From: a virus
Taxonomy: Duplodnaviria; Caudoviricetes
DNA length: 64,000 nt
Strand: one strand, 5' to 3'
IMG/VR virus record: IMGVR_UViG_3300028048_003120
Span: 1,121-65,120 of that record
The translations under genes were made by a program, and so were the position numbers. This document shows positions 6,347-43,388 of this stretch, in pieces (positions within the stretch are counted from its first letter, which is position 1; each line of letters begins with the position of its first letter). The notes under the pieces were generated by a model. It saw nothing but the letters and a program-made list of their open reading frames with translations. It was not told the origin of the DNA and did not search any database.

Positions 6347-6862
6347 TTACTCGTAGCCGCTGCTGCCGGCGGCGGCGGAGCCTCCTTTATTCATTGGGTG
6401 ACTGCCGCCTCCCTCCTTGGATGCGGTCGTGCCCTTGTTCCCTTTATCTTTTTTCGGTAAGCTATTTCTCCACTTCGTCGCGCCCTCATCGAGTTTTGCG
6501 ATACGGTTGAAGATTTCCAGCCGCATGGACTCCGGCGAAAGCGGCTCATGCTTCAATGGAATCTCAATCACGTTCCGGCGGGCGATGATGCGGGCGACAT
6601 GGACGAACTTCGTGACGGCGCTGCACATCTCCTTCAGATGATGCAGACGGTCATCGGGGAAGTCGTAAGCGTTTTGGAAAGCGGCCAGCACATCAAGAAC
6701 AAGATTGATGGCCCGGTCACAGTACCTACGGCGGTTCGTGGCATTCATCATCGGCTCCGCCCGGAGCAAAAGGTCGAGCAGGGCATCCGCGTCAACTGGG
6801 ATGCTCGGCTGCTCCTTCTCCCCGGTAAGCAGTTTCGGTTCAAAATACTCACTCTTTGCCAT
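6347..6862 (-). CDS. avd: DGR accessory variability determinant (Avd-like four-helix bundle)
   Basis: 171 aa helical protein between the target gene and TR. Ends in IAKLDEGATKWRNS (cf. the Avd G-W-x-x-S motif) plus a low-complexity tail that probably overlaps the 5' part of the TR RNA. Confidence 0.8.
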   Translation of the reverse strand: MAKSEYFEPKLLTGEKEQPSIPVDADALLDLLLRAEPMMNATNRRRYCDRAINLVLDVLAAFQNAYDFPDDRLHHLKEMCSAVTKFVHVARIIARRNVIEIPLKHEPLSPESMRLEIFNRIAKLDEGATKWRNSLPKKDKGNKGTTASKEGGGSHPMNKGGSAAAGSSGYE

Positions 6863-26459: not shown

Positions 26460-26502
26460 CAATGATAATCAACTCAAATTCCTTTTATTGTCTATCTGCT
26501 CC
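26460..26502 (-). promoter_or_regulatory. Putative late promoter (motif copy 4, degenerate)
   Basis: GGAGCAGATAGACAAT-N19-TATCATTG, upstream of the portal. Confidence 0.5.
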
Positions 26503-29500: not shown

Positions 29501-32500
29501 CTTGCGGAACGGGGACTTTTTCCAGCCCTCGATGATTCCCTCGATAGCCTGCTGCTGCTCTTTCTCCTTCTTCTCGTTCTGTGTCATATCCAATTGCGTT
29601 ATAGTAGTTGGTTATAAGTTCCCTTGTTCGGTCGGGGAGGTCGGGCAGGACGAATCTTGAAAAGCCCTCGCTCATCATGGATTCGGTCAACTGGACGAAC
29701 AGTTCTTCCTTCCTTTCCTTTTCCTCATAGTCCTTCGCGATTTCCCGCTCCATCTCGGCGATATGGTCGGGAGCCTTGCCGCGCATGAACTCGATGAAAC
29801 CATCCAGCGCTTCCGAATCTTTCCAAATCTTGTTCTTGTACAAGTAAGCGTGCAGGTTCTCATGGAAGAACGTGCCCTCATACTCGTCGTAACTTGTATT
29901 CGGATGTGCGAAGATACGAATAATATCGTGTACAAAGTTATATGCGCCGGCCCTTCCAGTCGTATCGCCGTCATCGCTGATGTCAACATACTTCGCCAGG
30001 TGCTGGTAGCGGTCCGTCAAATCCATAGCCACGCGACGGAGGTAGTCCTTGTCGTCCTCTCCTTCCTTCTGCGGGAATCCGCGGCTGAACATCGTATGAC
30101 TCTCGATGTTGATATCCTTGTCGTCGAAGATCACAACGCACTCCCCGTCAAGGCCACCGACATATTTGAGACCGACAAACCCGGCATCGTGCAGGAACTC
30201 GCTCGCCGCTTTCTTCGAGCGGAAGCCGTGGGCAAGTTCCGCATAGGCCCGGTCGCCGCCGATAGGTCCTTTCTCCATCTTGGCGATGAAGTCGTCCAGC
30301 GTGAGGTCGTGGAAAAGCAGTTTGTCGTCCTCCGTGGTCTTCCACGCACCTTCGGGCAGTTTGCGCAGTGCCTCGACGATCTTCGTCCGCATGGGCTTCG
30401 TGACATTCCTATCCTCGTCGAGATAGTTGTCCCCGGTATCGTCCGGGATTTCCACCTCGTAGAAGTTGTGGTCTATGTCGCGGACCTCAAAGTCGTCTTT
30501 GGCAAGGCCCTCGATGAATTCAATCTCCTTGTCGTAATGCTGGTTCATCCAGTAGGTATCCTTCATCTCCTTCCTGCGCTCCTCGGCCTTTTTCAGCATG
30601 TTGAGCATCCGGGCCTTGGCCTCCTCGAAGGGAACATCGTGGTCCCTCATCTCCTGCTTGATGAATTCCACAATCTCATTCGCGTAGTAGGTAGGGCCGC
30701 GCCTTCCCTTGTAGATAACCTTGTCGCGGTCTCCCAGCAGGGAATAGCGCCTTGCGGTCCCTTCCTCGAAAGTGATGTAGGTTCCATAGCCGTGCGCCTG
30801 ATGGCCTTCCCCCTCGCCGATATGGGCGTGGTCGAACTTGTCGAAGCGGGCCGGACTGCCATGATAGGCCCTGCTGAAACGGGTATCGCCCTCGCGCTGC
30901 TGCGGCTCGCGGCCCGCGGCGCGGACCAGGTCGTCCACCTCGTCGTTGGTAAGCACCTTCTTCACGCGCATGGAGCCGGTGATGATCCACGGGTCGGTAT
31001 CGGGATTCGGGTTCGTGCGATAGCGGTAGAAGCCATCTTCGGGGACACGCTTCAAGCCTGCGTAGGAGTGACGGAACCTGCCGCCCTCGGTCATGCCTTC
31101 CGCATCGGCCTCCTGCTGGTAGTCGTTGTCAGCAGCGTATTCCACCTCTGCCCATACGAAATCCTTCGGGAAAAGGTCTCTCTCCCCGGTCGCGGGGTTG
31201 AGGCGGTTGAACTGCTTCGCGTAGGGAATCTCGCCAAGGTGCCAGCCGGGACGGTATGCCAGCGTTCCGCTGCCGCCCTGAGTGCCCTTGCCACCCTGCT
31301 TGACCTGCGGACGGCCCGTCTTGCTCTCGCCGACGATGGGAGCCGCATCCGCATCAAGCCATACACCGACGGGCGTATCCTCGCCGCCGGGGTTCGCGAC
31401 CATAGGCGGGTAGAGTTTGCCGTCCTTCTGGAAGAACACCTTGTAGCCGATGCCCTTCTTTACCGGCTCCGGCTTCGTCCTGCGGCTGAAATGCGTATCT
31501 TCGGTAAGGAAGTCCACGGCCCGGCGGTCGTAGAGTTCCTCCAGCGCTTCGTCCTCGGTCTGCCCGGTCACGGAGGCAGCGGCCCGCGCGCGCTCGATGT
31601 CGCCACGGCTGAAATGGGTGTCGCCGCCTTCCTCGACTTCGACATCATCTTCTTCCGCGTCCTCCAATTCGATGTCGGCCTCCCCGGTCTCAACGCCGGA
31701 ATACTTGGCCTCCTTCTCCGCGAGTTCCTTAATCATCGCCTCGGTGTACTCGGCGACACGCTTCTGCGCCTCGACGAGTTTGTCCTGATCGGCGAAGGGC
31801 TTGCCCTTGCGGGCCTGCATCTTCCCGTTGTCGTCCTTCATGCGGTCGATACGGTTCTGCAGGTCCTCGATGCGCTCCTTCGCGTGCTTCCCGGTCGCGT
31901 ATTCCTCCTTGAACATCGGAACGATGTCGCGCAGACCGTTGATGCCGCCCGGCACGGAAGGAACATCCACGCCCAGTTCGGGGCAGGAGAACGAGATGGT
32001 CGTACTCATCGTCGAGACGAACATGCCGCCCTTGAAGTCCGATTTCTTCGTGACATTGGCTACGACATCGACCTTCACGCCGTCGAAGGAGAACACGTAA
32101 GCCTCGCGGCCATTCTCAAACTGATAGGAATCGCGCCAGCGGTCGATTTTCTCGCGCAGGGGCTTCGATACCTTCTCAGCTATGACCTTGCCTATTTCCT
32201 CGTCAGTGGTCGCGGAAACGCCCTCTATGACGACCTTCTTGACCTTGCCGCCGGGGAACAGTCGCTCCGCGGCCTCGGCGCTTTTCTTGAAGCGCTCGAT
32301 ATGGCCCTCGAACGAGGTAATCTTGCGCTCGTTCTCCTGCAACTGATTGGCGATGTATATCTGGTCGGCCCTGTGCATCTCCTGCTTGTTGCGGAGCTTG
32401 CGCAATTCCCGCTCGGCCTGCGATTTCAGCAGGGCGAACTGACTGCCGGAGAGGACGGCGACGGGATTGTCGAACAATCCTTCTTCCTCCTCCTCCAGCG

Positions 32501-35500
32501 TGCGGTTCTCCATGCCGTTCTTGATGAGCGGCTTGCCGTCCATCACACTGTCGATGAACGCGGCCTTCGTCTTCAGTCGCTGGTATGCGGTCACATCCAG
32601 CGAATCCTCAACGCCGAAGCGCACCACGCGGACGGTCTTGTCCCAGTCCTTATGCACATTCCCTTGCCGCAGGATACGGCCATTGCGCTGCGTGTAGTCC
32701 ATAGGACGGTCCGGCGCATCCATGTGTACGGCCATGTGCAGGCGCTCCTGGATATTCACGCCGGTGCCGAGCAGCTGCGTGGACCCCATGACGACGCGGA
32801 TGTCACCCGAATTGACCTTCGCAAAGACACGCTCCTTCTGATCTGCGCGCATCTCGCTGCGGATAATGGCAATCTTGTCAGCCGGGACACCACGGGCGAC
32901 GAGTTTCTTCTTGATGTCGTCAAAGACATTGAAGCCCTCGCTGCCGTCCGCATCTCTCCTGCGGAAGCGGTCGCAGAATATGACGACCGTGCCGTTGTAG
33001 TCCTTCGTTGCTTCGAGGTCCTCAACGACAATATCGACGGCCTTGTTGGTCTTGCTATTCGGCTCGTCCGGGGCGTTCTGCATGACGAGGCGCGGGTCAA
33101 TGGCGGCGCGCTTGGCAATGCCATACGCCGTGAGCGGGATATGGCTATTGCGGCGCTTCTCCTTGCCCGTCATCTTCTCGAACTTGTCGAGAATCTCGCG
33201 CACCTTGCGCATGATGGCGACGAGGGAAGGAGACTGCTCGAGGTAGATGTCCTGCGCCTTGCCACCCTCCATGTCGGGAATCTTCTCGGAGAGTTTCTTG
33301 CCCTTCGCGGCCTCCGCATCCTTCGCCAGCACCGTATCGGCCACGGATGCCCAGATACGCACCAACTCCGGCAGGTTCACGTAGGCAGAGAAACGGGTGT
33401 TCTCGCGGAACTTGCCGTTGGTGGCGAACTCGAGGCTCTTGGCGATGTTGCCGAAGTTGCGCACGAAGTCGTCGAAGTAGTAGATATGGTTCGCCAGCAT
33501 GACATCATCCGGCATGAGGTAGCGCATGAAGGTCCAGATTTCCGCTGCGGTATTCGAGATGGGCGTGCCCGTCGCGAACACAACGTTCTTCCATCCTGCC
33601 CGGTCGAACACGCTGCGCGTCTTGAGGAACACGCTCGCCGCCTTTTGGCTGACGGAAGGGTCCACACCTTTGATACCCTGCTGGAGCGCCGTGGCGAAGC
33701 CCAGGTGCTTGTATTCGTGCGCCTCGTCGATGAGCAGCGCGTCAATCTCCATCTGGTCGAAGTCCTCGACGGCATCCACCTTTCGGTCGAGCTGCCGCTT
33801 CGCCTTCGCCGCAGCGTTGGCCTTGACCTTCGCGTCGGTCTTCGCGTTGCGCCGTTTCTTGCCGCCGCCGGCGATGTTGCCTTCTTCGAGGTCGCCTTCG
33901 AGGTCTTTCAGTTCCTTCTCCATCCGCTTGATGGCCTGCGAATCCGCGCCAGCGTCCTTCGCCTGCTGGAGAACGTACATCTTCTCGTCAATCCTCGCCT
34001 GAATGAAGGCGCGCTTGCGCTCCTCGCTATCGGGAATCATGTTGAACACCGACTGCGGCACGACAATCATGTCCCAGTCGTTATACTTGATCTTCGCATA
34101 GAAGGCAGCACGGCCCTCCTGCGTCCTGTCTCCCTCGGAGACGGTCAGAATCTTTGCGCGAGGGTAGAGTTTCTTCGCCTCTCCGACGAACTGCCCGACG
34201 GTGGAGTTCTGCACAACGACCATAGGCTTCTTCGCCGTGCCAAGCCTGCGCATCTCCATCGCCGAGGTGATGAGCGTGAAGGTCTTGCCAGAGCCTACCT
34301 CGTGGGCCATCATCAGCGGCTCAGTCGTGGCCCGGATTACGGCCTTCGCCTGGTGCGGGTAGAGCTTTATCTCCATGTTCGCGCCCTCGAAGTGTTCCGG
34401 GATGAACCGCTCGTCAATCTCCTTCGGCACGATGGCGTTGAAAAGGTCGTTGTAGGTGCGGGTGACACGCTTCGCGAGGTCCTCGTCCTTGCTCATCTTA
34501 CCCTTCGCCCATTCGCGGAACTCGTCCTTGATTTCGTCGATGCGCGTCTGCGCGGCCTGCTCTGCCTCTTTATCGACCGTCGTGGTGGTCTCGCCCGTGA
34601 AGCGGTCCTTGTGGGATTCCTTGAACTCGGGGCGAGTATTGTTCATGGCGTGCAGCATCAGTTCGTGGCCCAAGACCTGCTTGTCCACAATCTTGCCCTT
34701 CACGCCGGCAGAACGGTTGGAATCGTTGTACTCGTTGAGTTTCCAGCCTCTCCTGATGAACTGCCACGTGCCGCCGATGGGCTTGAACTCGAAATCATCG
34801 GAAAGCCCGTATTTCTCCTTCGCGAAGTCGGAATAGATTCCCGGCTCCAGCCAGTCGGAACCCAGCGAGAACTCGATTAGGTGCGCAGGAATGTCGAGAG
34901 GGATTACCTTCTCCAGCGCCTTGATGTTGTTGTCGTACCGCCCGTCCTCGTTGTGGCTGCGGGCATACGCCAGCTTCTCGCGGACATTGCCGGAGAGATA
35001 TTCGTAACTCACTTCGAGGCTCCCGGACATCGGGTCTTCGAAAGCGAGGCCGGAATCAAGAATCTCGCCGCGCACGACATCTTCGCCCTGCCCGACGGCC
35101 TTCGCGATATACGGAAGGTCGATACGACCGAACTGGTTCATGCTGACGATCACGCCGTCCTTCGCATCCTTCGGCTTCGGAGTGGCCTTGAAGCCTACCA
35201 TACGCTTCGAGAACACATCCGTCTTCTTCGTGGTGACGATGCGCTTCCCGTGCTGGTCCAGCGATTCCGTGTAGTCCTCAACGGCAGCGACGGAAGGGAA
35301 GTCCACATCGTTGCGCAGGAAGGAAAGCGAGGTATTCTTGTTCAGCGGGCCATACTTGCCGACAAAGCCGTCGTAAGCCTCGTTCAGAGCCTCCAGGAGC
35401 GGAGCCAGGCCCTCGTCGGATTCATTGTTGGTTTGATACTCCAGCACCGCGTCAATGGCAGATTTGAGGGCGTTGTAGTCCTTCAAGACCTGCTCTTTCG

Positions 35501-38500
35501 TCTGCCCCTTGACCTTGTTGTTGTTCACGCCGAGAGGAACGGCCTTACCAAGACTGTTGATGCAGACCTCGCCCTTACTGTTGACGACGAGCTGCCCTTC
35601 CTTGACCTTGTCGGCCACGGCTTCGGGTTCCGCTGCTGCTGCGGTCTCGTCGGCGGCTTGCGGCGCGGCCTCCAGCGATTCGCGGAGGTCGGACAGTTTC
35701 TTGACCCAGCGGCCCAGCATCTTCTTCTGATCCTTCCCGTCCACGGGGAAAAGCCCGACGGAGGTAGGCCGGAAGGTCTCGCCGCGGTCGAAGTTGAACA
35801 ACATCTCGCCAGCCATGTTCTCCGGGTGTTCGACGAAGTAGGTGTCGTACTCGATCGAGACGGGCGTTTCGGTCTGCTCGTACTGACCGGTCCTACGGTT
35901 GAACTTCCCTTCCTCCTTGTACACATCGCGCCGCGTGACGGTGGTCCCTATCATGTCGGCAGCGCCGGGCATGGCCTTGCCGCCGACGCGCTTGCGGACG
36001 ATGATGATGTCGGAAGTGACGGGCGTGCCGCCGAAGGTCTGGTTGTTGAGGCGGAAAGCGCCGACGAAGTCCGCGCCGCCCTCCGTGGTCACCCACTGAC
36101 GGAGAGCGCGGCTCTTGTCAAGCGTGCCGTTGGAAGTGATGAAGATACCGATGCCGCCCTCGCGGAGCTTGCGGACATTCTTCGCGATGCAGAAGTCATG
36201 AATATTCCCGAACTTGCGGGACAAATCCTTCTCCACCTCATCGACGACATGCAGACCCGTGACGAACGGAACGTTGGTAATGGCGAGATCGACACTGTTG
36301 TTGGGTATCTTCACATCCTCGAAGCCCCTGATCTGCACATCTGCATCCGGGTATAGCAGTTTGAGGATGTTGCCCGTGACGGAATCAATCTCCACCGCCG
36401 TGATGTCGCTGGCCTCGCTGACGGCCTTCGGCATGTTCGCAAGGATATTGCCCACGCCGGCAGACCCTTCGAGGATTCTGCCACCCGTGAAGCCGAGATT
36501 CTTCGCAGCGTCCCAAAGGGAGTCGATGATTTCGACCGGGGTGTAGTAGCTGGAGTTGATGGAGAGTTCCGCAGATGCGATTTCCTCGTCGGTCATCGCG
36601 TCATGCAGCATGCGCTGGACGCTGGAATGCGGTGCTTCGTTGAAGTAGGAGCCGAGGCCACCCCAGCCGGAGAACTGTCGCAGTACCTCCATGTCCGCCT
36701 TCGACGCTTTCTTGCCGGAATCGACAAGCTCGCGCATCTTCTTTATTGCGGCGATGTTGGCCTTGAACCGTTCAATAGGGGTCGTGGGAGCGTAGGATAC
36801 GCCACGCTCGCCACGGTTGTTGTTGAGGTTCTTCCTTACGGAATATCGAGGTCGAGCGGGCAGAGTCCGACCATCCTCAACGCCCTTTCCTTCTCCTCCT
36901 CGGTCAGTTCCTCCACGTTCTTGCCCAGCTGCTTCGCCAGTTTCTCCCGACCCTCCTGGATTATCTTGCTCGGGTCGATTGTCGTGAATGCCATCGTCTT
37001 GTGTATTTGATGAGTTGTTTTCTTCTATTTCTGCGAACAAGCCGCCGAGCGGTGCAGAACTTTCCTGCGAAGGTACTGCTTTTTCAACATCTTTCCTAAC
37101 CCTCTTGATTCTTTCCTTCGCCTTGTCAGCCTCCTTCTCGACCTGCGCTTCCTCAACTGCCGCCTGCGCAGCCTCCGCAATGTCGGGGGCCGCTTCTCCG
37201 AGGGTGTTCACGTCGATTCCGCGCACATCGTCGTAGGAATCCATCTCGCCCTCGTACTGCTCCATGCCGGGCAGGTCGCGGGCACCGTTGTAGAACGCCT
37301 TGAGGTATGGCTTGATCGCATCCCCAAGGTCGGCAATCATGGCCTTCGCATACGCAACGAACTTGCGAGCGCCCTTCTCGATATGGTACACGGCCATCTG
37401 CGCGCCGATGGAGAAGATTTCCGGGTCGATACCCATGTTCATCTGGCCTTTCAGCTTCTCCTTCATGCGGCGCACGAGGTCAGCATATTGCTCGTCGGTC
37501 ACGAGTTTGTTGCCGGAAGGATTCACGGGGCGCTCCTCCTTCGGCTGCTCGACCGCCGCGGCAGCGGCTTCACGGGCAGCAGCGGACGGACCCTCGAACT
37601 TGTCGATGCTGGACCACTCCACGACCTCGTAGATGACGGGAGCAAGGCCGGTATCAAGTACGGGCCTATGGTCGCCCCAATCCTCGAAGTCGTGAATCTT
37701 GGCCAGCACGGTCTTTCCGCTATAGGAAGTGTACATGACCTTCTCGCCGAGGCGATAGCCGTTCACGCCCTCGCCGGCCTTCTGCTTGTCGAAGTTGTAG
37801 AGATGAATCTTGCGGTCCAGCTCGCTCTTGTCGGAGTCGGAAAGGAGTTCATACAGTCCGTTGTTCTCCAAAATGCCCTTCAGGTCCTCCGGGGTGTCTG
37901 CGGTAACCTCATAGTTGCCGTCGTAGATTTCCTGCCCGTTGGCGAGAACCTGATAGCGTTCCAGGCGAGAATGTCCGCTGCGGTGGGCCGTGAGTTCATA
38001 CCTCCACTTCGGCTCCTCCTCCTTCGTCTCCGGCTGCATCTCGATCACCGAGACTTCGCCGGAGGTCTGGAGGTCTTCAACGGACAACGGTCGTGCATCC
38101 TGCACGCTCTGCTTGCTTTCAAGCGCGTCGGCAAGGCGCTGGGCGCTTTCCATGTCACGCATCATGAACCCACCGTCCTCACGAGAATACCAGCCGCGGC
38201 TCTCCTTCGCAATGCCGCTGGCCGTGGCCTTCTCGTCCTTCGAGAGTTCACGGCCCGGCCTCACGAGGAACATGTCGAGCGAGCGGCCCTTTTTCGTGGT
38301 ATATTTGGCCGGGGTAATGGTCGCCTTCGTCGCGGGGGCCTCGGTCTCTGTTTCCGCAGCCGGTGCCTGCTCCTGCTCTGCCATGCGCTGCATGGCGAGA
38401 CGCTTGTACGATTCGCGGAGGATAACCGAGATGTCCTTGTCGGTCATCTCCGGCTGGTAGCCGCGCTTCTCGAAGATGGAGCGGAAGAATTCTGCTATCT

Positions 38501-41500
38501 TGTGCCAGATACCCTCGCCGCTCTTGTAATCGACGGTCTCGGCGAGTTCCGCGATATACTCATCGGCGGCTGCTCTCTGCCGTTTCTCCTCCGCAAGATG
38601 CTGCACCTTGCCGAGAAGCTCCGACCGTCTCTTTTCGGGGATGATCTCCCACACGCGGTCGCACAGTTCGTCGAAGCCTTCCTGCCCGAGCAGGTCGCGC
38701 ACGCCCTTGTGCCCGACAAGCTCGTGGAACACCTTGCGTTCCGCTTCCGAGAGGGAACCGATGTTCGGGGCGTAGATATGGACCTCGCCCGTCTTGCCGT
38801 CATACCAGCCCGTGATGGTGTCTCCATCCAGCAGGGCGCGGTAGGCGGCTGCGTCGTTCACATCGTTGGGGCTTTCGTGGACGATGATAGGCGTATGCAG
38901 GGCCTGCGACATGGAATCAATCTTCTTACGAAGCTGGCCATAGCGAGGCAGGCGCTCCGGCTTCTGTTCGTTTTCGGCGGGTTTTTGTTCGATTTCGGCA
39001 GGGTTTTCTTCCAGCAGGCCATATTGCCCGGCGAGCTGCTGGTAGTATTCCACCAGCGGAAGCCCGGCCTTCTCCGCGGCCTCCGTCGCATCCTTGATGG
39101 CCTTCTTTGCCGGGGCGCTGACCTTCTTATTCGGCGAGACCGAAGCCTTCTGATTGTTGCGGTACACCTCGTCGGCGCGTTCGCTCTCGGCCTGCCAAGC
39201 GTCGTACAGTTCGGAGAAGCGCTGCATCTCCTCGTCGGTGATGTGGTCTGCGAGTTCGGGGTTGCCGTCGGACTGCTCGATGATGCCGCGCACCTTGTCA
39301 CGCAGGGACGGCTCGCCCTGTGCGGCATCTTCTGGAACACCCTCCTTCCGTACATCGCCCTCGGTCTTGACGGTCTTGTACTCGGAGAAGGGTTTCGTCT
39401 TGCGGTGCGAGGATTCCACCCATTTCTTGAACTCGTCGCGGCTGACCTCGGCGATGGCCCCCAGCCCGGTCCAGCCTTCCTCGTAGTTGGAGAGGTAGGC
39501 GGCACGGGCCGCTTCCATGTCGGGGAAGCCGTACATGACCTTATGCTCGTCGAAGGAGCCGTCCGGCTTGACCTGATCCACGACGAACACGTTGCCCTCC
39601 TCCGGGTTGTCGGAGAGGAACACGTCGATATGGTCGCCGTCCACGCCTTCGGTGCCACGGATATAGCCGTAGGTATTGTTCATAACCTGCGACCACTCGT
39701 GGCCCTGAGCGTCAGTACCGCTGCGGACGCTGCCCTTCGGCTGCTCTATGGTAATGTCGTATCCGTCGAGCTTGATATGTCCTTTCTTGTAGTTGCCCGC
39801 TTCCTTCTGCGCCTCGGTCGGTTCGGTATCCACTTCGGCCTCGGCAGCGGCAATTTCTTGCTGCTTTTCGGAAAGTTCTGCGGGTGTTTCGGAAATTTCA
39901 TGGGCATTTTGGGCAATTTGAGCGGCCTCGATTGCTTCCTGCTCCCGACGGGCCAGCTCCTCCGCCATAGCAGCGCGGTTGTTTTTGATAAAGTTCTTTA
40001 CATCGCCCCACGACTTGACCTGCGAAAGCACGTTGAGGATGGAATCGCGGATGTCCATGTCGTCGAGTTGGGCCGTGAGGCCGGTATCGTCGCTCTCCTT
40101 GACAATCTCGGCGAGGCGCGACACCGACAGTCCCCCGTCCTTGACGAAGCCTCCGACAAACCCCTGCAGGTCGGAATCGGAATAGCCCGTCTCGCGAAGG
40201 AAATCCTCCTTGTCAAGCTGGCCCTTGTAGGCGTTGAGGTACTGCGAAACGAGTTCATCGACGGACTGCGGCTCCATTTCCCTGGACTCGCGCAGCCTCT
40301 GACGAGCCTCAACGCTTTCAGCGGCCTTGTTGATGGATTCGATGCGCTTCTGGACGGTCTTGATCTGGTCGCTGAGTTCATCGCGCTTGTCGAAGTCCGG
40401 CTCCGCATCGTATTTCTTCTGCAGGGCATCGAGTTGTCTCTGCTGGCGGGCAATCTCGCCCTTCAGATATCCCTGCGCGCTCTTGCCGCCGTCATCGCGG
40501 CGCTTGGTCTCCCACTCAGCCCAGGATTCGGGGTCGCCCTCAAAGAGTTTCGACTGGTCAACCCTTCCGTCCTCCTTCATCGGCATGGGACGGCCTCGGA
40601 AATCGTACTCCGTAGCTTGTTGCGCGGCTTGTGGCCGCGTTTCTACCTCCGGCTGGACTTCCTGCTGCCCGGCTGCCTGCGGCTGCTCTACGGGCGTTTC
40701 CTGCCCTTCCTGCGGCTGCGGCTCGACGGCCTGCGCAGGCTGGACGGTTCCGGCGCGTAGGCTGACGAAATCGGCGATGGGAATCTGATGCACGCGACCG
40801 ATGGAGTCGCCCAGTTGCACATCGTCGTCGAAGCGGACGACCACGTTGCCGTCGGCGGTCACGTGGGTTGCGGTCCCCATAACGGTTGCGCCTCCGATGT
40901 TGAACGGCTCCTCCTCGCCCGTGAGCGAATCGGCGATCTCCTGCTTCGTCGGGGTCTCGATTTCGCGGGCGAGCTGCCGCTGGTATGCGTCCTCGATCTG
41001 ACGCTTGGCAGTATTGAACAGTTCTCCGGCAGGCGCAGAAGTGAAGGACTGAACCTCGCGAGGGGAAATCATCCTTACCTTGCCGTCCGGCATGGTGACA
41101 TAGAGTTTGTCGCTGGAGTTGCGGCGGTCCACGGAGCCGTCCTCGGTCTTGGCGAGCCGTCCGGCCTTCATCCCGACCTTCGTGCCGTCCTTCAGCGTGA
41201 TGTCGTAGTAGATGCCGTCTGCGGTCTTGCTGCGGATGTCCTGCTCGGCCCGGTCGATGTCGGCCTGCATCTCCTCGTTGATACTGTCGTTCACGCCGAC
41301 GATGGCGGCACGCGCCTGCGTATAGCGGTCGAGTATGGGCTTCAACTCCGGCTGCATCGCCTCAATCATTCCGGCATAAGCGGAATCCTCGTCGATGGCA
41401 TGAATCTCGTCATCGGAGATACCGGCACGGGCAATCTCGGCCAGCGCCGTGTCATATTCGACCTTCGCGGCACGCTTGGCCTCCGGGTCCGTCAGGGATA

Positions 41501-43388
41501 CGGAAACCTCGTAGATGTCGTCCAGGTTCGCCTGCTCTGGCTCGTCGGCCTCCTTCTTTGCGCGGGCCTTGTCTGCGCCCAGCCGTTCCTCACGGGCAAA
41601 TGCGTAGGCAAGGATTGCCTCCTCCTGCTCGGGAGTGTAGTAGCCGCTGGAGTTGAACTTGCCGAGGAAGTCACGCAGCTCGTCCTCGTCGCAGTGGTCA
41701 ACCATAGAAGTGACCTCTGCCCAGTCCTCCTGATCGTCGAAGGTCTCGGAGCCTTTCTTGAACACGCGCTTACGCTTGTCCTCCATCTGCTGCTTGGGGG
41801 TTCGGTAGCCCACGGTCTTGATAGCGGACACGAAGCCGCCGAAGGCTCCCACGCCGAGGAAGGTATCAATGAGGTTATCCTTGCTGAACACCTCGCCGAG
41901 AGACTGGTCGCCCACGGTAAGGGCGTTCATGACACCGCCGACGAGTTCTTCCCCGAACTCACCTACAACGCCGTTCCAATGCGTCTTGTTGAGGAAGTGG
42001 TTCACGGTCTCCATCCATTCAGCCGTGCCGATGTTGTCGATGAAGTCGTTTACCCGTTGCAGGCCCATCCGTTCAAGCCGCTTGCTCGTCCAGCCGCCTA
42101 CGGCGCTGCCGATAGGCTTGAAATACTCCCCGAACATCTCGGAGAAGTTCTCGATGGTCCTGGCTCCGTATGCCTGCGCGAAAGCGCCGAAGAAAGTGTC
42201 AGTACCGCCGTCCACGCCGTCGAACTTGATTCCGTCCTCCGTCTCGCTGAACTTGATGTCGCCGACCCTACGCTGCATGGCATCCGCAGTCGTGGAGAGT
42301 GCGCCCGTCGTGCCGGTCATGGCAGCGGCAGATGCGACGTCGCCAGCGACACGTCCGACGACCGATGCGGCCTTCTTCGCCACACCTTCCTTCGCAATCT
42401 TCTCGCCGAGTTTCTTCGCGAGGGCCTTGCCGATGATGCTGCCGCCGCCCTCGGCGCTGCCGGAGACGGGGTTCATCATGAACTCCAGCATGAAGGGGAG
42501 GGACTGTCCCGTAGTGAGACCGGCCTTGTAGCCGCGACCGAGGAAATCCCCGTAGTACATGTCGCTGGCCATCTTGTGGGCTGCTGCATCCAGCAGGATA
42601 TTCTCGGCCTCCGTCAGTTCCTGACCCTCGTCGAGTTTCTTCGCGGCGGTCATCAGGGCCGCGTTCTTTTGAAAGTCGGAAATACCGAAGTCCCAATTGG
42701 CCTCCGTGAAGGAGTCCGCGAGGCCCTTTCCGAATCCGCGGCCACCTTCCGCAGCCTTGCGCGTCTTCTCTGCCTCAACGTACATGCGCTTGGCCTGCTT
42801 CAACACCACAGCGTCATAGTCCACATCTTCCGGCATGTCGTAGGTCGGAATGCCGTAGGGGTCGGCGAGGTTCTGATGGGAACGGAGCTGCCCGGCATCC
42901 TTCAACTCCTTCTCACGGGCACCGTACAGTTCTTCTATCCTCGCCACCGCGTCGCTCTCGTCCTGCTGGAAGTATTCGCCGCGCTCTGCGTCCGGCGCTT
43001 CCTTCGCAGCGTTCCTCTCCGCGGCCCTGCGCACCATGTTGGGTGCATGGACCTGCGGAATCTTGTGCCCGTCGATACTGTCCGGGGCAGACGGCGGCGC
43101 GGCTTGAGCCTGCGGCTGCTGCTCCGCTCCACCTTGCTGCGGAACGGGAGAGGCCGGCTGCTGGGGCTGGCCCTGCTGCGGCTCCGCAGGCTGCTGCGGC
43201 ACGCCAAAAAGATTGTTGAAGGAATCGTAGTCACCAACATTAAGGCCCATGCCCTGGGCCTTGGAGTGGTACCATCTGCGGTCTTCCTCGTTATTCAGAG
43301 AGTTCTCGAAGTCCTCGTAGGAACCGATGTTAAGGCCCTGCTTGGAGAACTTGTCGTAGAGCCACTTTTTATCGTCGTTATTCGTCAT
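26502..43388 (-). CDS. Giant polyvalent / DarB-like virion ejection protein (5,628 aa)
   Basis: N to C, approximate positions: InPase-like domain (about 39400-39830; GTEGVDGDHIDVF, DEHKVMYGF); metallopeptidase (HELVGH, about 38715); N6-adenine methylase (FSGWGG, ILEGSAGVGN, NVPF; about 35900-36800); SNF2/DEAH helicase (AHEVGSGKT, IDEAH, QRNGRILRQG; about 32500-34400); YRPGWH domain; ART-PolyVal-like (YHGS...GYGTY); second metallopeptidase (HENLH, about 29855); LPD38-like C-terminus. Confidence 0.9.
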   Translation of the reverse strand: MTNNDDKKWLYDKFSKQGLNIGSYEDFENSLNNEEDRRWYHSKAQGMGLNVGDYDSFNNLFGVPQQPAEPQQGQPQQPASPVPQQGGAEQQPQAQAAPPSAPDSIDGHKIPQVHAPNMVRRAAERNAAKEAPDAERGEYFQQDESDAVARIEELYGAREKELKDAGQLRSHQNLADPYGIPTYDMPEDVDYDAVVLKQAKRMYVEAEKTRKAAEGGRGFGKGLADSFTEANWDFGISDFQKNAALMTAAKKLDEGQELTEAENILLDAAAHKMASDMYYGDFLGRGYKAGLTTGQSLPFMLEFMMNPVSGSAEGGGSIIGKALAKKLGEKIAKEGVAKKAASVVGRVAGDVASAAAMTGTTGALSTTADAMQRRVGDIKFSETEDGIKFDGVDGGTDTFFGAFAQAYGARTIENFSEMFGEYFKPIGSAVGGWTSKRLERMGLQRVNDFIDNIGTAEWMETVNHFLNKTHWNGVVGEFGEELVGGVMNALTVGDQSLGEVFSKDNLIDTFLGVGAFGGFVSAIKTVGYRTPKQQMEDKRKRVFKKGSETFDDQEDWAEVTSMVDHCDEDELRDFLGKFNSSGYYTPEQEEAILAYAFAREERLGADKARAKKEADEPEQANLDDIYEVSVSLTDPEAKRAAKVEYDTALAEIARAGISDDEIHAIDEDSAYAGMIEAMQPELKPILDRYTQARAAIVGVNDSINEEMQADIDRAEQDIRSKTADGIYYDITLKDGTKVGMKAGRLAKTEDGSVDRRNSSDKLYVTMPDGKVRMISPREVQSFTSAPAGELFNTAKRQIEDAYQRQLAREIETPTKQEIADSLTGEEEPFNIGGATVMGTATHVTADGNVVVRFDDDVQLGDSIGRVHQIPIADFVSLRAGTVQPAQAVEPQPQEGQETPVEQPQAAGQQEVQPEVETRPQAAQQATEYDFRGRPMPMKEDGRVDQSKLFEGDPESWAEWETKRRDDGGKSAQGYLKGEIARQQRQLDALQKKYDAEPDFDKRDELSDQIKTVQKRIESINKAAESVEARQRLRESREMEPQSVDELVSQYLNAYKGQLDKEDFLRETGYSDSDLQGFVGGFVKDGGLSVSRLAEIVKESDDTGLTAQLDDMDIRDSILNVLSQVKSWGDVKNFIKNNRAAMAEELARREQEAIEAAQIAQNAHEISETPAELSEKQQEIAAAEAEVDTEPTEAQKEAGNYKKGHIKLDGYDITIEQPKGSVRSGTDAQGHEWSQVMNNTYGYIRGTEGVDGDHIDVFLSDNPEEGNVFVVDQVKPDGSFDEHKVMYGFPDMEAARAAYLSNYEEGWTGLGAIAEVSRDEFKKWVESSHRKTKPFSEYKTVKTEGDVRKEGVPEDAAQGEPSLRDKVRGIIEQSDGNPELADHITDEEMQRFSELYDAWQAESERADEVYRNNQKASVSPNKKVSAPAKKAIKDATEAAEKAGLPLVEYYQQLAGQYGLLEENPAEIEQKPAENEQKPERLPRYGQLRKKIDSMSQALHTPIIVHESPNDVNDAAAYRALLDGDTITGWYDGKTGEVHIYAPNIGSLSEAERKVFHELVGHKGVRDLLGQEGFDELCDRVWEIIPEKRRSELLGKVQHLAEEKRQRAAADEYIAELAETVDYKSGEGIWHKIAEFFRSIFEKRGYQPEMTDKDISVILRESYKRLAMQRMAEQEQAPAAETETEAPATKATITPAKYTTKKGRSLDMFLVRPGRELSKDEKATASGIAKESRGWYSREDGGFMMRDMESAQRLADALESKQSVQDARPLSVEDLQTSGEVSVIEMQPETKEEEPKWRYELTAHRSGHSRLERYQVLANGQEIYDGNYEVTADTPEDLKGILENNGLYELLSDSDKSELDRKIHLYNFDKQKAGEGVNGYRLGEKVMYTSYSGKTVLAKIHDFEDWGDHRPVLDTGLAPVIYEVVEWSSIDKFEGPSAAAREAAAAAVEQPKEERPVNPSGNKLVTDEQYADLVRRMKEKLKGQMNMGIDPEIFSIGAQMAVYHIEKGARKFVAYAKAMIADLGDAIKPYLKAFYNGARDLPGMEQYEGEMDSYDDVRGIDVNTLGEAAPDIAEAAQAAVEEAQVEKEADKAKERIKRVRKDVEKAVPSQESSAPLGGLFAEIEENNSSNTQDDGIHDNRPEQDNPGGSGETGEAAGQERGGTDRGGEGKGVEDGRTLPARPRYSVRKNLNNNRGERGVSYAPTTPIERFKANIAAIKKMRELVDSGKKASKADMEVLRQFSGWGGLGSYFNEAPHSSVQRMLHDAMTDEEIASAELSINSSYYTPVEIIDSLWDAAKNLGFTGGRILEGSAGVGNILANMPKAVSEASDITAVEIDSVTGNILKLLYPDADVQIRGFEDVKIPNNSVDLAITNVPFVTGLHVVDEVEKDLSRKFGNIHDFCIAKNVRKLREGGIGIFITSNGTLDKSRALRQWVTTEGGADFVGAFRLNNQTFGGTPVTSDIIIVRKRVGGKAMPGAADMIGTTVTRRDVYKEEGKFNRRTGQYEQTETPVSIEYDTYFVEHPENMAGEMLFNFDRGETFRPTSVGLFPVDGKDQKKMLGRWVKKLSDLRESLEAAPQAADETAAAAEPEAVADKVKEGQLVVNSKGEVCINSLGKAVPLGVNNNKVKGQTKEQVLKDYNALKSAIDAVLEYQTNNESDEGLAPLLEALNEAYDGFVGKYGPLNKNTSLSFLRNDVDFPSVAAVEDYTESLDQHGKRIVTTKKTDVFSKRMVGFKATPKPKDAKDGVIVSMNQFGRIDLPYIAKAVGQGEDVVRGEILDSGLAFEDPMSGSLEVSYEYLSGNVREKLAYARSHNEDGRYDNNIKALEKVIPLDIPAHLIEFSLGSDWLEPGIYSDFAKEKYGLSDDFEFKPIGGTWQFIRRGWKLNEYNDSNRSAGVKGKIVDKQVLGHELMLHAMNNTRPEFKESHKDRFTGETTTTVDKEAEQAAQTRIDEIKDEFREWAKGKMSKDEDLAKRVTRTYNDLFNAIVPKEIDERFIPEHFEGANMEIKLYPHQAKAVIRATTEPLMMAHEVGSGKTFTLITSAMEMRRLGTAKKPMVVVQNSTVGQFVGEAKKLYPRAKILTVSEGDRTQEGRAAFYAKIKYNDWDMIVVPQSVFNMIPDSEERKRAFIQARIDEKMYVLQQAKDAGADSQAIKRMEKELKDLEGDLEEGNIAGGGKKRRNAKTDAKVKANAAAKAKRQLDRKVDAVEDFDQMEIDALLIDEAHEYKHLGFATALQQGIKGVDPSVSQKAASVFLKTRSVFDRAGWKNVVFATGTPISNTAAEIWTFMRYLMPDDVMLANHIYYFDDFVRNFGNIAKSLEFATNGKFRENTRFSAYVNLPELVRIWASVADTVLAKDAEAAKGKKLSEKIPDMEGGKAQDIYLEQSPSLVAIMRKVREILDKFEKMTGKEKRRNSHIPLTAYGIAKRAAIDPRLVMQNAPDEPNSKTNKAVDIVVEDLEATKDYNGTVVIFCDRFRRRDADGSEGFNVFDDIKKKLVARGVPADKIAIIRSEMRADQKERVFAKVNSGDIRVVMGSTQLLGTGVNIQERLHMAVHMDAPDRPMDYTQRNGRILRQGNVHKDWDKTVRVVRFGVEDSLDVTAYQRLKTKAAFIDSVMDGKPLIKNGMENRTLEEEEEGLFDNPVAVLSGSQFALLKSQAERELRKLRNKQEMHRADQIYIANQLQENERKITSFEGHIERFKKSAEAAERLFPGGKVKKVVIEGVSATTDEEIGKVIAEKVSKPLREKIDRWRDSYQFENGREAYVFSFDGVKVDVVANVTKKSDFKGGMFVSTMSTTISFSCPELGVDVPSVPGGINGLRDIVPMFKEEYATGKHAKERIEDLQNRIDRMKDDNGKMQARKGKPFADQDKLVEAQKRVAEYTEAMIKELAEKEAKYSGVETGEADIELEDAEEDDVEVEEGGDTHFSRGDIERARAAASVTGQTEDEALEELYDRRAVDFLTEDTHFSRRTKPEPVKKGIGYKVFFQKDGKLYPPMVANPGGEDTPVGVWLDADAAPIVGESKTGRPQVKQGGKGTQGGSGTLAYRPGWHLGEIPYAKQFNRLNPATGERDLFPKDFVWAEVEYAADNDYQQEADAEGMTEGGRFRHSYAGLKRVPEDGFYRYRTNPNPDTDPWIITGSMRVKKVLTNDEVDDLVRAAGREPQQREGDTRFSRAYHGSPARFDKFDHAHIGEGEGHQAHGYGTYITFEEGTARRYSLLGDRDKVIYKGRRGPTYYANEIVEFIKQEMRDHDVPFEEAKARMLNMLKKAEERRKEMKDTYWMNQHYDKEIEFIEGLAKDDFEVRDIDHNFYEVEIPDDTGDNYLDEDRNVTKPMRTKIVEALRKLPEGAWKTTEDDKLLFHDLTLDDFIAKMEKGPIGGDRAYAELAHGFRSKKAASEFLHDAGFVGLKYVGGLDGECVVIFDDKDINIESHTMFSRGFPQKEGEDDKDYLRRVAMDLTDRYQHLAKYVDISDDGDTTGRAGAYNFVHDIIRIFAHPNTSYDEYEGTFFHENLHAYLYKNKIWKDSEALDGFIEFMRGKAPDHIAEMEREIAKDYEEKERKEELFVQLTESMMSEGFSRFVLPDLPDRTRELITNYYNAIGYDTEREEGERAAAGYRGNHRGLEKVPVPQEEVRVLRGDAEDAGSAGEGEGVTVFSRKATPPAPGDLKGLYEFRINNWRNKVRESHQDSMLALKVLQEELVRASGKPLESFEDAYTAENQLSSVNSAEKEFYTRNYFDPMIKAVRDMMVAAGIDYEGAIKYAIAKHGLERNEVFHDRDEQAAGETIERRDYSGLTSLMLLDGEDAIDLDEAEERARIYVDDIEGRAAAECASMWQKVKDATKKALYKSWQSGILTRSEYENVRDMFNFYVPLRGFDEETAEQHYEYLDHKSSPFSPAMRTAKGRTSIADDPFATIGNMWESTVQQGNNNLVKQKFLNMVLNRPNDLVTVKPMWYTYDPVADEWTQAVPQITNDMSREDIQEAFDSFQQRMEALEQQGLASKKKPNRGRVNIPYRLLNKQDQEHMVVVKSGGKDWVLVINGNPRAAQAINGLTNPDRQDFLAKMAKANRWMAANFTTRSPKFVLRNLIRDTTYSLFSIDVKEDSDYNRAFRGNLMRNYGRIWNLMRRFKAGEFDEVDDNDLPETERLFKEFMMNGGETGYTQLKRVDEYKKMVNRIIGDQTGEKLHTVKNAGRAVEDFVGFANRCVEDICRLSAYMTSRQMGRDIQTSVANAKDISVNFNKKGSGEGYGSSFARAAYLFYNAGVQGLQNFVGLRGKSRRTKIGNLRKFDVNVASTLILGAMIPFLNGIISAAVGGDDDEYADLPDWVRRNNLVLGGGGFYLTIPLSIELRAFYGIGDIAYMTMAGRMKDHKPWQVGLDVFGQVADIMPLNPVEGVVTNKGKNPGEGLLLSLVPDMVAPVAQAALNTDFTGKPIYKKQPWNESAPAYTKAYAGTSKVLVKSAEFLNNVTGGDQYGPGAVNINPAIVEHLLEGYFGGLLTFAEETAKSVEMTWDSDMRQLRNVPLANVLFQKNDERTASSYVNDMYWHYKQEADVTEKRARGYRSDGDIEKAARIASSDAYQRARFFKEADKRVKKLQDELKDTDDKDRQNFLRERIADEKRAMVERLTDMD
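29435..29587 (-). CDS. Nested +1-frame ORF inside the giant gene (50 aa)
   Basis: MTQNEKKEKEQQQAIEGIIEGWKKSPFRKRKCGYFEETRKMQEAQEKAKE*; A-rich leader; G/C-ending codon bias lies in this frame rather than the host frame. Confidence 0.6.
   Translation of the reverse strand: MTQNEKKEKEQQQAIEGIIEGWKKSPFRKRKCGYFEETRKMQEAQEKAKE
36836..36994 (-). CDS. Nested +1-frame ORF inside the giant gene (52 aa)
   Basis: MAFTTIDPSKIIQEGREKLAKQLGKNVEELTEEEKERALRMVGLCPLDLDIP*; A at -3, -6, -12 and -13; G/C-ending codon bias in this frame; upstream TTAG-N20-TACCTTCG. Confidence 0.65.
   Translation of the reverse strand: MAFTTIDPSKIIQEGREKLAKQLGKNVEELTEEEKERALRMVGLCPLDLDIP

What the first reader, a model, noticed from the sequence alone, without database searches (positions are those of the whole stretch)
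36836..37099. Overprinted 52-aa gene nested in the giant ejection protein, just before its methylase-helicase module
Seen: in the +1 frame of the 5,628-aa gene an ATG at 36994 opens MAFTTIDPSKIIQEGREKLAKQLGKNVEELTEEEKERALRMVGLCPLDLDIP*. Its codons are G/C-ending like the rest of the phage, while the host frame here is an atypical Gly/Glu/Arg linker with many A/T-ending codons. The leader has A at -3, -6, -12 and -13 (Bacteroidetes initiation signature). A near-consensus promoter, TTAG-N20-TACCTTCG (37068..37099), lies about 75 nt upstream inside an AT-rich patch. The stop falls at the RYSVR junction that opens the methylase domain. Inference: a separately expressed small inhibitor, chaperone or antitoxin for the adjacent enzymatic cargo, hidden inside the structural gene and missed by standard annotation.
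Basis: partly seen in the sequence, partly recalled or inferred. Interest (0 to 1): 0.8.

Follow-up and report, generated by a model that had tools for sequence, protein, structure and literature searches.

The report
Real small gene hidden inside giant gene
A 52-residue protein gene lies in a second reading frame inside the linker of a 5,628-residue phage protein gene; related phages keep it under protein-level selection, so one stretch of DNA encodes two products that annotation reports as one.

Summary
ORF "X" (36836..36994, minus strand) lies in the +1 frame of the 5,628-aa polyvalent DarB-like gene. By length it is ordinary: 18 ATG ORFs of 52 aa or more share that frame. By content it is not. 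Only two places in the giant gene have +1-frame codon usage that beats the main frame, X and a second ORF at 29435..29587.

X belongs to an unnamed family of about 90 protein clusters, 47-71 aa, ending LTExE..AL..IGLCxLDxxIP.
- In 72 IMG/VR phage contigs it sits at the same linker, with the host frame open across it in all 72.
- Across 16 independent nested pairs, pN/pS is 0.25 in the X frame (p = 3e-21) and 1.22 in the host frame. This reverses 600 nt downstream.
- The host frame has no stop in any of 39 distinct nested copies. Free-standing homologues have 2-3 stops in that frame.
- X's ATG is the only one of 267 in the gene with A at -3, -6, -12 and -13.

The proposed promoter is not supported. 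The role as inhibitor or chaperone of the methylase is untested. First readers of this scan noted the same pattern on other genomes. Best reading: a genuine overlapping gene, closest in logic to the HBV polymerase spacer/preS overlap.

The parts
36836..36994 (-). X: nested +1-frame gene, 52 codons plus TAA. The product is a small acidic protein (net charge -3, pI 4.8) predicted as three helices.
   Evidence: ORF and peptide. Coding signal. Family and homologues. Selection. Predicted structure. Charge.
36995..37034 (-). A-rich leader without a Shine-Dalgarno sequence, upstream of X's ATG. It holds the last +1-frame stop (37025-37027) and A at -3, -6, -12 and -13.
   Evidence: A fraction is 0.55, top 0.04% of the giant gene. 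The four-A signature is unique among 267 ATGs. These positions are positive determinants of initiation in Bacteroidetes (PMC6847099).
36836..37027 (-). Dual-coding stretch. The main frame reads it as a Gly/Glu/Arg/Asp-rich linker (about residues 2121-2185) between the N-terminal modules and the methylase module.
   Evidence: Host GC3 is 0.32. Host-frame pN/pS is 1.2-1.4 in relatives, yet the frame is never interrupted in 39 distinct copies.
26502..43388 (-). Host gene: 5,628-aa polyvalent DarB-like protein with LPD14, InPase, methylase, SNF2/ResIII helicase, Helicase_C and LPD38 modules.
34419..36835 (-). Conserved start of the methylase module in the main frame (RKNLNNNRGERGVSYAP...), beginning right after X's stop.
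   Evidence: About 50% identity to 15 relatives, with many invariant columns. Anchor alignments.
37068..37099 (-). Present but not supported as a promoter.
29435..29587 (-). Y: second nested +1-frame ORF (50 aa), the only other place in the giant gene with a +1 coding signal. Not homologous to X.
   Evidence: Only its own cluster came back: one 100%-identical protein and no relative in viral contigs.

Best explanation
X is a genuine protein-coding gene that overlaps, on the same strand and in the +1 frame, the interdomain linker of a giant polyvalent (DarB-like) phage gene.

Shown:
- The same 159 nt are read two ways. The nested frame is under amino-acid selection and makes a 52-aa acidic helical protein of a widespread, unnamed family.
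- The main frame is under no amino-acid constraint there, but is kept free of stops. It serves as a disordered Gly/Glu/Arg spacer joining the N-terminal modules to the methylase-helicase module.

Inferred:
- X is translated by internal initiation on the giant gene's mRNA, or on an unmapped internal transcript. Initiation would use the A-rich, Shine-Dalgarno-less start region typical of Bacteroidota.
- Origin: a small free-standing accessory gene lay between two large genes. These fused by reading through it in its -1 frame, so the spacer is the newer reading.

Function (inferred, about 0.3 sub-confidence): an autonomous accessory factor of mobile elements in phage-host conflict, such as an anti-defence or regulatory protein. 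It would be co-inherited with, but not strictly dependent on, the DarB-like module.
For: 1. Coding signal. A codon-usage log-odds scan of all 5,628 codons finds only two places where +1 beats frame 0. X peaks at +32, against a gene mean of -57 with SD 17. The codon-position GC pattern is shifted by one base there.

2. Family. phmmer against 1.84 billion representatives gives 12 hits, all of 51-93 aa. Ten of the 12 align to within 2 residues of their C-terminus; the best has 76% identity, E = 2.8e-17. A profile search gives 90 clusters.

3. Conserved nesting. 72 IMG/VR contigs carry X at the same junction. The host frame spans X in all 72 and stays open over the whole 6.1-kb locus in 70. There are 33 distinct peptides; 24 of them are exactly 65 aa and the C-terminal end is conserved.

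4. Selection.
- Pooled pN/pS is 0.26 in the X frame and 1.39 in the host frame.
- A control 600 nt downstream gives the reverse, 2.78 and 0.05.
- In 16 independent pairs the values are 0.25 (binomial p = 3e-21) and 1.22, and 15 of 16 pairs agree.
- The window's X against free-standing P0001 has 68% nucleotide and 76% amino-acid identity, pN/pS 0.17.

5. Host frame kept open. None of 39 distinct nested copies has a stop in the host frame. Free-standing homologues have 2 and 3 stops in that frame. Synonymous resampling leaves it open only about 25% of the time.

6. Start site. A at -3, -6, -12 and -13 is unique among 267 ATGs. In relatives the A frequencies at those positions are 1.0, 0.48, 0.85 and 0.81. 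These are experimentally shown determinants in Bacteroidetes (PMC6847099).

7. Free-standing members are ordinary genes. P0001 lies in an island with HsdR, McrBC and an integrase, and has an exact TAAATTTG -7 box upstream. P0002 lies in a tandem array of small genes.

8. One relative, L035, has the three-gene form A / X / DarB-like, produced by a single-base change.

9. Generality. The same signature marks other nested families in relatives (X', X'', W, Z), always in the +1 frame.
Against: - There is no direct evidence of translation. The only RNA evidence is one 459-nt metatranscriptome contig over 36664-37125. It cannot show a start, a strand or a level, and may derive from DNA.
- Within the window's own lineage very few substitutions are available. 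Three differences from L114 split 2 non-synonymous to 1 synonymous. The selection evidence therefore comes mainly from the 65-aa relatives.
- No conserved promoter was found.
- No family, fold or defence-database match gives a function.
- Pairs of related sequences are not fully independent, so the p-values are approximate.
Confidence: 0.8

Rival explanations
1. Fossil of a swallowed gene. X was an independent gene captured when two large genes fused. Only the giant frame is translated now, and the +1 coding signal is a residue that has not yet decayed.
For: The free-standing homologue at 76% identity and the cassette-like replacement of X by unrelated ORFs at the same site suggest recent capture events. 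The few changes seen in the window's own lineage do not themselves show constraint.
Against: Nested copies diverged to about 45-55% amino-acid identity still keep the ATG, the length, the stop and the motif. pN/pS among nested copies alone is 0.25, against 1.22 in the host frame. The start-site signature is conserved.
Confidence: 0.07
2. Programmed +1 frameshift product. Ribosomes on the giant gene slip into the X frame in the A-rich stretch and terminate at X's stop. This would yield a truncated N-terminal protein with an X tail alongside the full-length protein.
For: The X frame is open for 10 codons upstream of the ATG, within an unusually A-rich stretch. X's stop lies exactly at a module boundary. 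Two-product genes of this kind are known in phages (PMC5009743 was listed but not read in detail).
Against: A +1-frame stop lies only 4-19 codons before the conserved ATG in all copies, leaving a very short and unconserved window for slippage. Free-standing homologues have about the same length and N-terminus as the nested ones. No slippery motif was identified.
Confidence: 0.06
3. Three separate genes. The N-terminal part, X and the DarB-like part are distinct genes, and the open main frame across X is incidental or an assembly artefact. On this reading there is no real dual coding.
For: L035 has a stop in the main frame six codons after X's ATG, and gene callers there report three genes. A GC3-rich gene has few stops in its -1 frame, so openness is partly compositional: 0.22-0.51 for this X.
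Against: No main-frame stop exists anywhere between 43388 and 26502. None of 39 distinct nested copies has one, nor do about 28 loci carrying unrelated nested ORFs. The two flanking parts are always in the same frame. The L035 stop is a single T-to-G change. Independent assemblies agree.
Confidence: 0.05
4. Chance ORF in a GC-rich gene.
For: 18 ATG ORFs of 52 aa or more occur in the same frame of the same gene, the longest 165 aa.
Against: All of the comparative, codon-usage and selection evidence above.
Confidence: 0.01

Closest known systems
Hepatitis B virus polymerase spacer / preS-S overlap (modular-evolution model reviewed in PMC8227390)
   Same: A short gene lies between two large coding modules. 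The modules are joined by reading through the short gene in another frame. The joining reading is a disordered, fast-evolving spacer, while the short gene keeps genome-like codon usage and constraint (for the model; for this case).
   Different: This is a DNA phage of Bacteroidota, not a hepadnavirus. The nested gene is entirely internal and only 52-65 codons long. It belongs to a family with free-standing members in bacterial islands. The slot is filled by different small genes in different lineages.
Embedded same-strand phage genes such as lambda Rz1 inside Rz and phiX174 E inside D and B inside A (from general knowledge, not tested here)
   Same: A small gene lies wholly inside a larger one, in another frame on the same strand, with its own start codon.
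   Different: In those textbook cases the embedded gene is usually taken to be the newer reading. Here codon usage and phylogenetic spread indicate that the embedded gene is the older one and the host linker the newer. There is no sequence or functional relationship to Rz1, E or B.
Polyvalent proteins of phages and conjugative elements, including P1 DarB (Iyer, Burroughs and Aravind 2017, PMC5512222)
   Same: The host gene has the defining multi-domain architecture (LPD14, InPase, methylase, SNF2 helicase, LPD38) and matches DarB-like genes.
   Different: A term search of that paper found no mention of overlapping genes or frameshifts; its only 'nested' hits refer to a hairpin fold. X is not a domain of the polyvalent protein; it is a separate product from another frame.
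Small accessory (anti-defence, moron-type) genes of phages and mobile elements
   Same: X is small and acidic, lacks annotation and is swappable at a fixed genomic slot. It is found beside defence or mobility genes when free-standing.
   Different: No anti-defence activity has been shown. There is no match in PADLOC, Pfam or PHROGs. The location inside a coding linker rather than between genes is unusual.

Membership tests
Same-strand overlapping (nested) protein-coding gene | An ORF with its own start and stop lies wholly inside another ORF in a different frame | tested here: met
   36836..36994 lies inside 26502..43388, offset +1.
Same-strand overlapping (nested) protein-coding gene | Purifying selection on the amino-acid sequence of the nested frame | tested here: met
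   pN/pS is 0.25-0.26 in the X frame and 1.2-1.4 in the host frame, and the pattern reverses in a flanking control.
Same-strand overlapping (nested) protein-coding gene | The enclosing frame is also maintained as coding across the overlap | tested here: met
   None of 39 distinct copies has a stop. Free-standing homologues have 2-3 stops, and resampling leaves the frame open about 25% of the time.
Same-strand overlapping (nested) protein-coding gene | Both products are actually made | not testable with these tools
   Only an RNA-library contig covers the site. No Ribo-seq or proteomics data are available.
Polyvalent / DarB-like protein (host gene) | Many conflict-related domains in one polypeptide, including LPD domains, a methylase and an SNF2 helicase | tested here: met
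   LPD14, InPase, ResIII/SNF2, Helicase_C and LPD38. DNA similarity to DarB-like genes.
Any curated protein family (Pfam, PHROGs, PADLOC) for X | Profile match above threshold | tested here: not met
   Best Pfam match E = 0.007-0.1, all far below cut-offs. Best PHROG match E = 0.002, a family of unknown function. PADLOC gave none.
Antitoxin, inhibitor or chaperone of the adjacent methylase-helicase | Physical binding to the DarB-like module | tested here: inconclusive
   A co-fold of X with residues 2185-2990 gave no verdict. Synteny supports linkage, but free-standing homologues lack any DarB-like neighbour.
Programmed ribosomal frameshift site | A conserved slippery sequence, with the shifted frame open from the shift site | tested here: inconclusive
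   Only 4-19 codons are open upstream of the ATG. No slippery motif was recognised, and no dedicated search was run.
Bacteroidetes sigma-A promoter (TTTG ... TAnnTTTG) upstream of X | A match to both boxes that is conserved in relatives | tested here: not met
   One mismatch in each box. Matches this loose occur 0.75 times per kb. TAnnTTTG lies within 150 nt in only 2 of 46 relatives.

The most novel reading that the evidence does not exclude
The giant polyvalent genes of this Bacteroidota phage group are built by threading one reading frame through arrays of small accessory genes. On this reading, junctions between modules hide still-functional small genes, always in the +1 frame (X, X', X'', W, Z, Y). 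Different lineages swap these like cassettes. Together they would form an unannotated second layer of phage-host conflict genes expressed from inside a virion-protein gene.
Probability: 0.45. Interest if true: 0.85.

Novelty: new variant of a known kind. Interest (0 to 1): 0.72.

Why it matters
- **Annotation.** Gene callers forbid fully nested same-strand genes. This whole family, about 90 clusters and 72 or more phage contigs, is reported only on broken or short contigs. The cultured relative BS-TP4, which lacks X itself, is annotated with one giant CDS and no nested ORF.
- **Evolution of giant proteins.** The case gives a concrete, testable mechanism for how giant polyvalent proteins grow: adjacent genes fuse by reading through an intervening small gene. 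It also explains their Gly/Glu/Arg-rich spacers as the -1-frame shadow of a GC3-rich gene.
- **Overlapping genes.** It is a clean bacterial-virus counterpart of the HBV spacer/preS model, and here the nested gene is the older partner.
- **Phage biology.** Small acidic proteins tied to an anti-restriction module are candidates for new anti-defence or regulatory functions. Silent-in-one-frame mutations make the two products separable by genetics.

Tried and rejected
- **tblastn of X against related giant-gene loci and the window.** No paralogue and no in-frame copy were found. This rules out a duplicated segment or a compensated double frameshift of an in-frame domain.
- **tblastn against cultured phages and plasmids.** X and P0009 against cultured phages, and P0001 against plasmids, gave no match.
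- **Pattern scans of GTDB representative genomes.** Nothing was found. One earlier attempt failed for lack of a conserved stretch.
- **ESM Atlas.** No usable hit.
- **Fold searches.** Foldseek against PDB gave nothing at E <= 0.001. VIA-align wide gave a best Z of 4.1 to TetR-type three-helix heads and histone folds, within the range of common helical arrangements, so no fold is claimed.
- **Co-fold of X with the methylase module (residues 2185-2990).** No verdict, with scores of 0.00 in both runs.
- **HMM test of X', X'' and the BS-TP4 ORF against the X profile.** Not significant, so these are treated as different families in the same slot.
- **Blastp of neighbours of free-standing X (L030, L031) against the giant protein.** No shared partner domain was found. 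Pfam found only AIPR, LRR_5 and BT4734-like_N nearby.
- **Y homologues.** No relative was found: only one 100%-identical protein and nothing in viral contigs.
- **RNA runs.** Shares were small and contigs only. Parts without cover mean nothing.
- **Reinitiation idea.** I considered that X's stop is coupled to a restart of the DarB-like part. The window has no ATG, GTG or TTG in the main frame near X's stop, as read, so I dropped it.
Full report
**1. What is there**

The window is a 65-kb provirus record. On its minus strand runs a single ORF of 5,628 codons, 26502..43388. It carries LPD14, InPase, SNF2/ResIII, Helicase_C and LPD38 domains. Its DNA resembles genes annotated as DarB-like anti-restriction proteins. 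It is therefore a polyvalent protein in the sense of PMC5512222.

The reported ORF is exactly as described. ATG is at 36994, TAA at 36836-36838, it has 52 codons, and it lies in the +1 frame of the giant gene.

**2. Is it more than chance?**

By length it is not. The same frame of the same gene holds 18 ATG ORFs of 52 aa or more, up to 165 aa. By content it is.
- GC at the three codon positions is 0.58/0.32/0.79 in the nested frame. This matches the gene-wide coding pattern of 0.62/0.39/0.79.
- The main frame there reads 0.81/0.58/0.32. A GC3 that low occurs in 0.5% of windows.
- A codon-usage log-odds scan with 50-codon windows finds only two places in 5,628 codons where +1 outscores frame 0. 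These are this ORF (+32) and a second one at 29435..29587 (+37). The mean is -57 with SD 17. The +2 frame never wins.

**3. The decisive comparison**

My first hypothesis was a compensated double frameshift of an in-frame domain. It failed: related giant genes have no in-frame copy of the peptide.

Instead, every related locus has its own +1-frame ORF of 88-115 aa ending 2-17 nt before the conserved methylase start. Each shows the same shifted GC pattern.

A full HMMER search of X against 1.84 billion representatives returned 12 hits. All are small proteins of 51-93 aa, and ten of the 12 match to within 2 residues of their C-terminus. A profile search found 90 clusters, none with an informative name (two carry only 'hypothetical protein'). 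The family motif is LAK.L.K.VE.LTE.E...AL..IGLC.LD..IP-end.

The genomic contexts fall into three kinds:
- **Free-standing genes in bacterial islands.** P0001 (76% identical) lies beside HsdR, McrBC, a BT4734-like_N gene and an integrase, with an exact TAAATTTG -7 box upstream. P0002 lies in a tandem array of five small genes next to an AIPR gene.
- **One relative, L035, with three called genes, A / X / DarB-like.** The split is due to a single T-to-G change that creates TAG in the main frame.
- **Nested in an uninterrupted giant frame, which is the rule.** In 72 IMG/VR contigs the main frame spans X in all 72 and is open over the entire 6.1-kb locus in 70. Apparent stand-alone calls on short or truncated contigs (L036, L109-L112, L114, L116-L118) are also nested when the frames are read.

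**4. Selection**

| Comparison | X frame pN/pS | Host frame pN/pS |
|---|---|---|
| Pooled pairs of 35 distinct nested 195-nt sequences | 0.26 | 1.39 |
| Control, 600 nt downstream in the methylase module | 2.78 | 0.05 |
| 16 phylogenetically non-overlapping pairs | 0.25 (binomial p = 3e-21) | 1.22 |

In the 16-pair set, 15 pairs have the lower ratio in the X frame.

The window's X against free-standing P0001 has 68% nucleotide and 76% amino-acid identity, with pN/pS 0.17.

The unrelated nested ORF X' in the L002 group behaves the same way: dN/dS is 0.12-0.21 nested against 1.3-2.7 in the host frame.

So the amino-acid sequence under selection in this stretch is X's, not the linker's.

**5. 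Is the main frame really coding there too?**

Yes, in the sense of being kept open.
- None of 39 distinct nested copies has a main-frame stop.
- The two free-standing homologues have 2 and 3 stops in the equivalent frame.
- Synonymous resampling of X leaves the frame open only about 25% of the time on average, and 0.22-0.51 for this window's X.
- The two flanking parts are always in the same frame.

The main-frame product here is a Gly/Glu/Arg/Asp-rich stretch. This composition follows automatically from reading a GC3-rich gene one base earlier, because the first codon position becomes G-rich.

**6. How X is probably expressed**

The 40 nt before the ATG are 55% A, in the top 0.04% of the gene. 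X's ATG is the only one of 267 ATG trinucleotides in the gene with A at -3, -6, -12 and -13. In 27 distinct relatives the A frequencies at those positions are 1.0, 0.48, 0.85 and 0.81, against a background of 0.31. These positions were shown experimentally to promote initiation in a Bacteroidetes species (PMC6847099).

The proposed promoter is not supported. It has one mismatch in each box, and such matches occur 0.75 times per kb on this strand. The -7 box is present upstream in only 2 of 46 relatives.

A 459-nt contig from a bovine gut metatranscriptome covers 36664-37125. This is compatible with transcription but proves nothing about a start, a strand or translation.

I infer internal initiation on the giant gene's mRNA or on an unmapped transcript. 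This step is not shown.

**7. What X may do**

X is acidic: net charge -3 and pI 4.8, with a family median charge of -4. It is predicted as three helices with pLDDT 75. It has no significant family, fold or defence-database match.

It is tightly syntenic with the DarB-like module in phages. Close homologues nevertheless live without any such neighbour in islands rich in restriction and mobility genes. In other phage lineages the same slot is filled by unrelated small ORFs.

This pattern fits a swappable, autonomous accessory gene of mobile elements (anti-defence or regulatory) better than a dedicated antitoxin or chaperone of the methylase. This is inference, at roughly 0.3 confidence.

**8. 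Generality**

Scans of relatives show only +1-frame peaks, and each corresponds to an ATG ORF of 50-115 aa. Besides X, X' and X'', two further nested families appeared:
- **Family W.** L116 and L009 share 39% identity, E = 5e-10, in the nested frame, while the host frames there do not align.
- **Family Z.** It is identical in L035 and the cultured Bacteroides phage BS-TP4. Their single nucleotide difference is silent in Z and changes the host residue.

BS-TP4's record annotates one giant CDS and nothing inside it.

**9. Comparison with what is known**

A term search of the polyvalent-protein paper found no mention of overlapping genes or frameshifts, and two literature searches found no description of this arrangement.

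The closest analogue is the model for the HBV polymerase spacer overlapping preS/S. There a short gene between two modules was read through in another frame to make a disordered spacer (PMC8227390). Embedded phage genes such as Rz1 are similar in layout only.

First readers of this scan noted the same 65-aa nested ORF before the methylase module on other genomes. Those notes were unchecked, and the present tests support them.

**10. Verdict**

This is a new variant of a known kind, a conserved dual-coding junction inside a giant phage gene in which the small nested gene is the older partner.

Noticed in passing
window 29435-29587 (-): A second nested +1-frame ORF, Y (50 aa), is the only other place in the giant gene where +1 codon usage beats the main frame (peak +37). 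The main frame there is again Gly/Glu/Arg/Ala-rich. Y is not homologous to X, and no relatives were found beyond its own cluster.
   Followed up: partly
L031:8168-8464 (+) compared with window 29438-29587 (-): The 98-aa gene immediately downstream of free-standing X (P0001) shares a short motif with Y, PF..KCG[WY]FE. The match is 11 of 22 residues, E = 0.002 for a single comparison. It may mean that X-like and Y-like genes travel together, but the evidence is weak.
   Followed up: partly
L035:1681-1851; L115 (BS-TP4 record 6498-6668): Nested +1 ORF family Z (54 aa, MDNNEAMYW...) lies inside the N-terminal part of the giant gene. It is identical in a metagenome contig and in the cultured Bacteroides phage BS-TP4. 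The single nucleotide difference is silent in Z and changes Arg to Gly (L035 to BS-TP4) in the host frame.
   Followed up: partly
L116:99-284; L009:4316-4513: Nested +1 ORF family W (61-65 aa, MN.L..K.KSYEEGL...) sits just upstream of X or X''. It is conserved at 39% identity (E = 5e-10) in the nested frame, while the host frames there are unalignable. A linker can therefore hold two nested genes in tandem.
   Followed up: partly
L035:4029-4031: In one relative a single T-to-G change (X Met7 to Arg) creates TAG in the main frame. It splits the giant gene into an N-terminal gene, X and a DarB-like gene. This is either a natural split form or a sequencing error.
   Followed up: partly
window 37008-37012: Close relatives in public runs carry a 3-nt deletion in the A-rich leader, between the last +1-frame stop and X's ATG. 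It is in frame for both readings. Position 36845 A>G in one run is silent in X and changes Tyr to His in the host.
   Followed up: no
L030:709-1793: A free-standing X homologue lies in a tandem array of five small genes (three 65-aa paralogues, X, and a 78-aa gene). The array sits between an AIPR (abortive-infection type) gene and an LRR_5 gene whose product continues into a GPPGCGKT nucleotide-binding motif (read by eye). GC is 38%.
   Followed up: partly
L109:3139-11658: A shorter DarB-like gene opens only 127 codons upstream of X and lacks the large N-terminal part. X is still nested after a conserved G-D-L-F motif of the main frame. Contigs L110-L112, of about 27.6 kb, all end about 300 nt upstream of X.
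   Followed up: no
L113:1-18213: In a bacterial MAG contig, X (70 aa) is called alone on the plus strand amid many short minus-strand calls with gaps. This looks like a giant gene that gene calling broke up, through frameshifts or another cause. I did not examine it.
   Followed up: no
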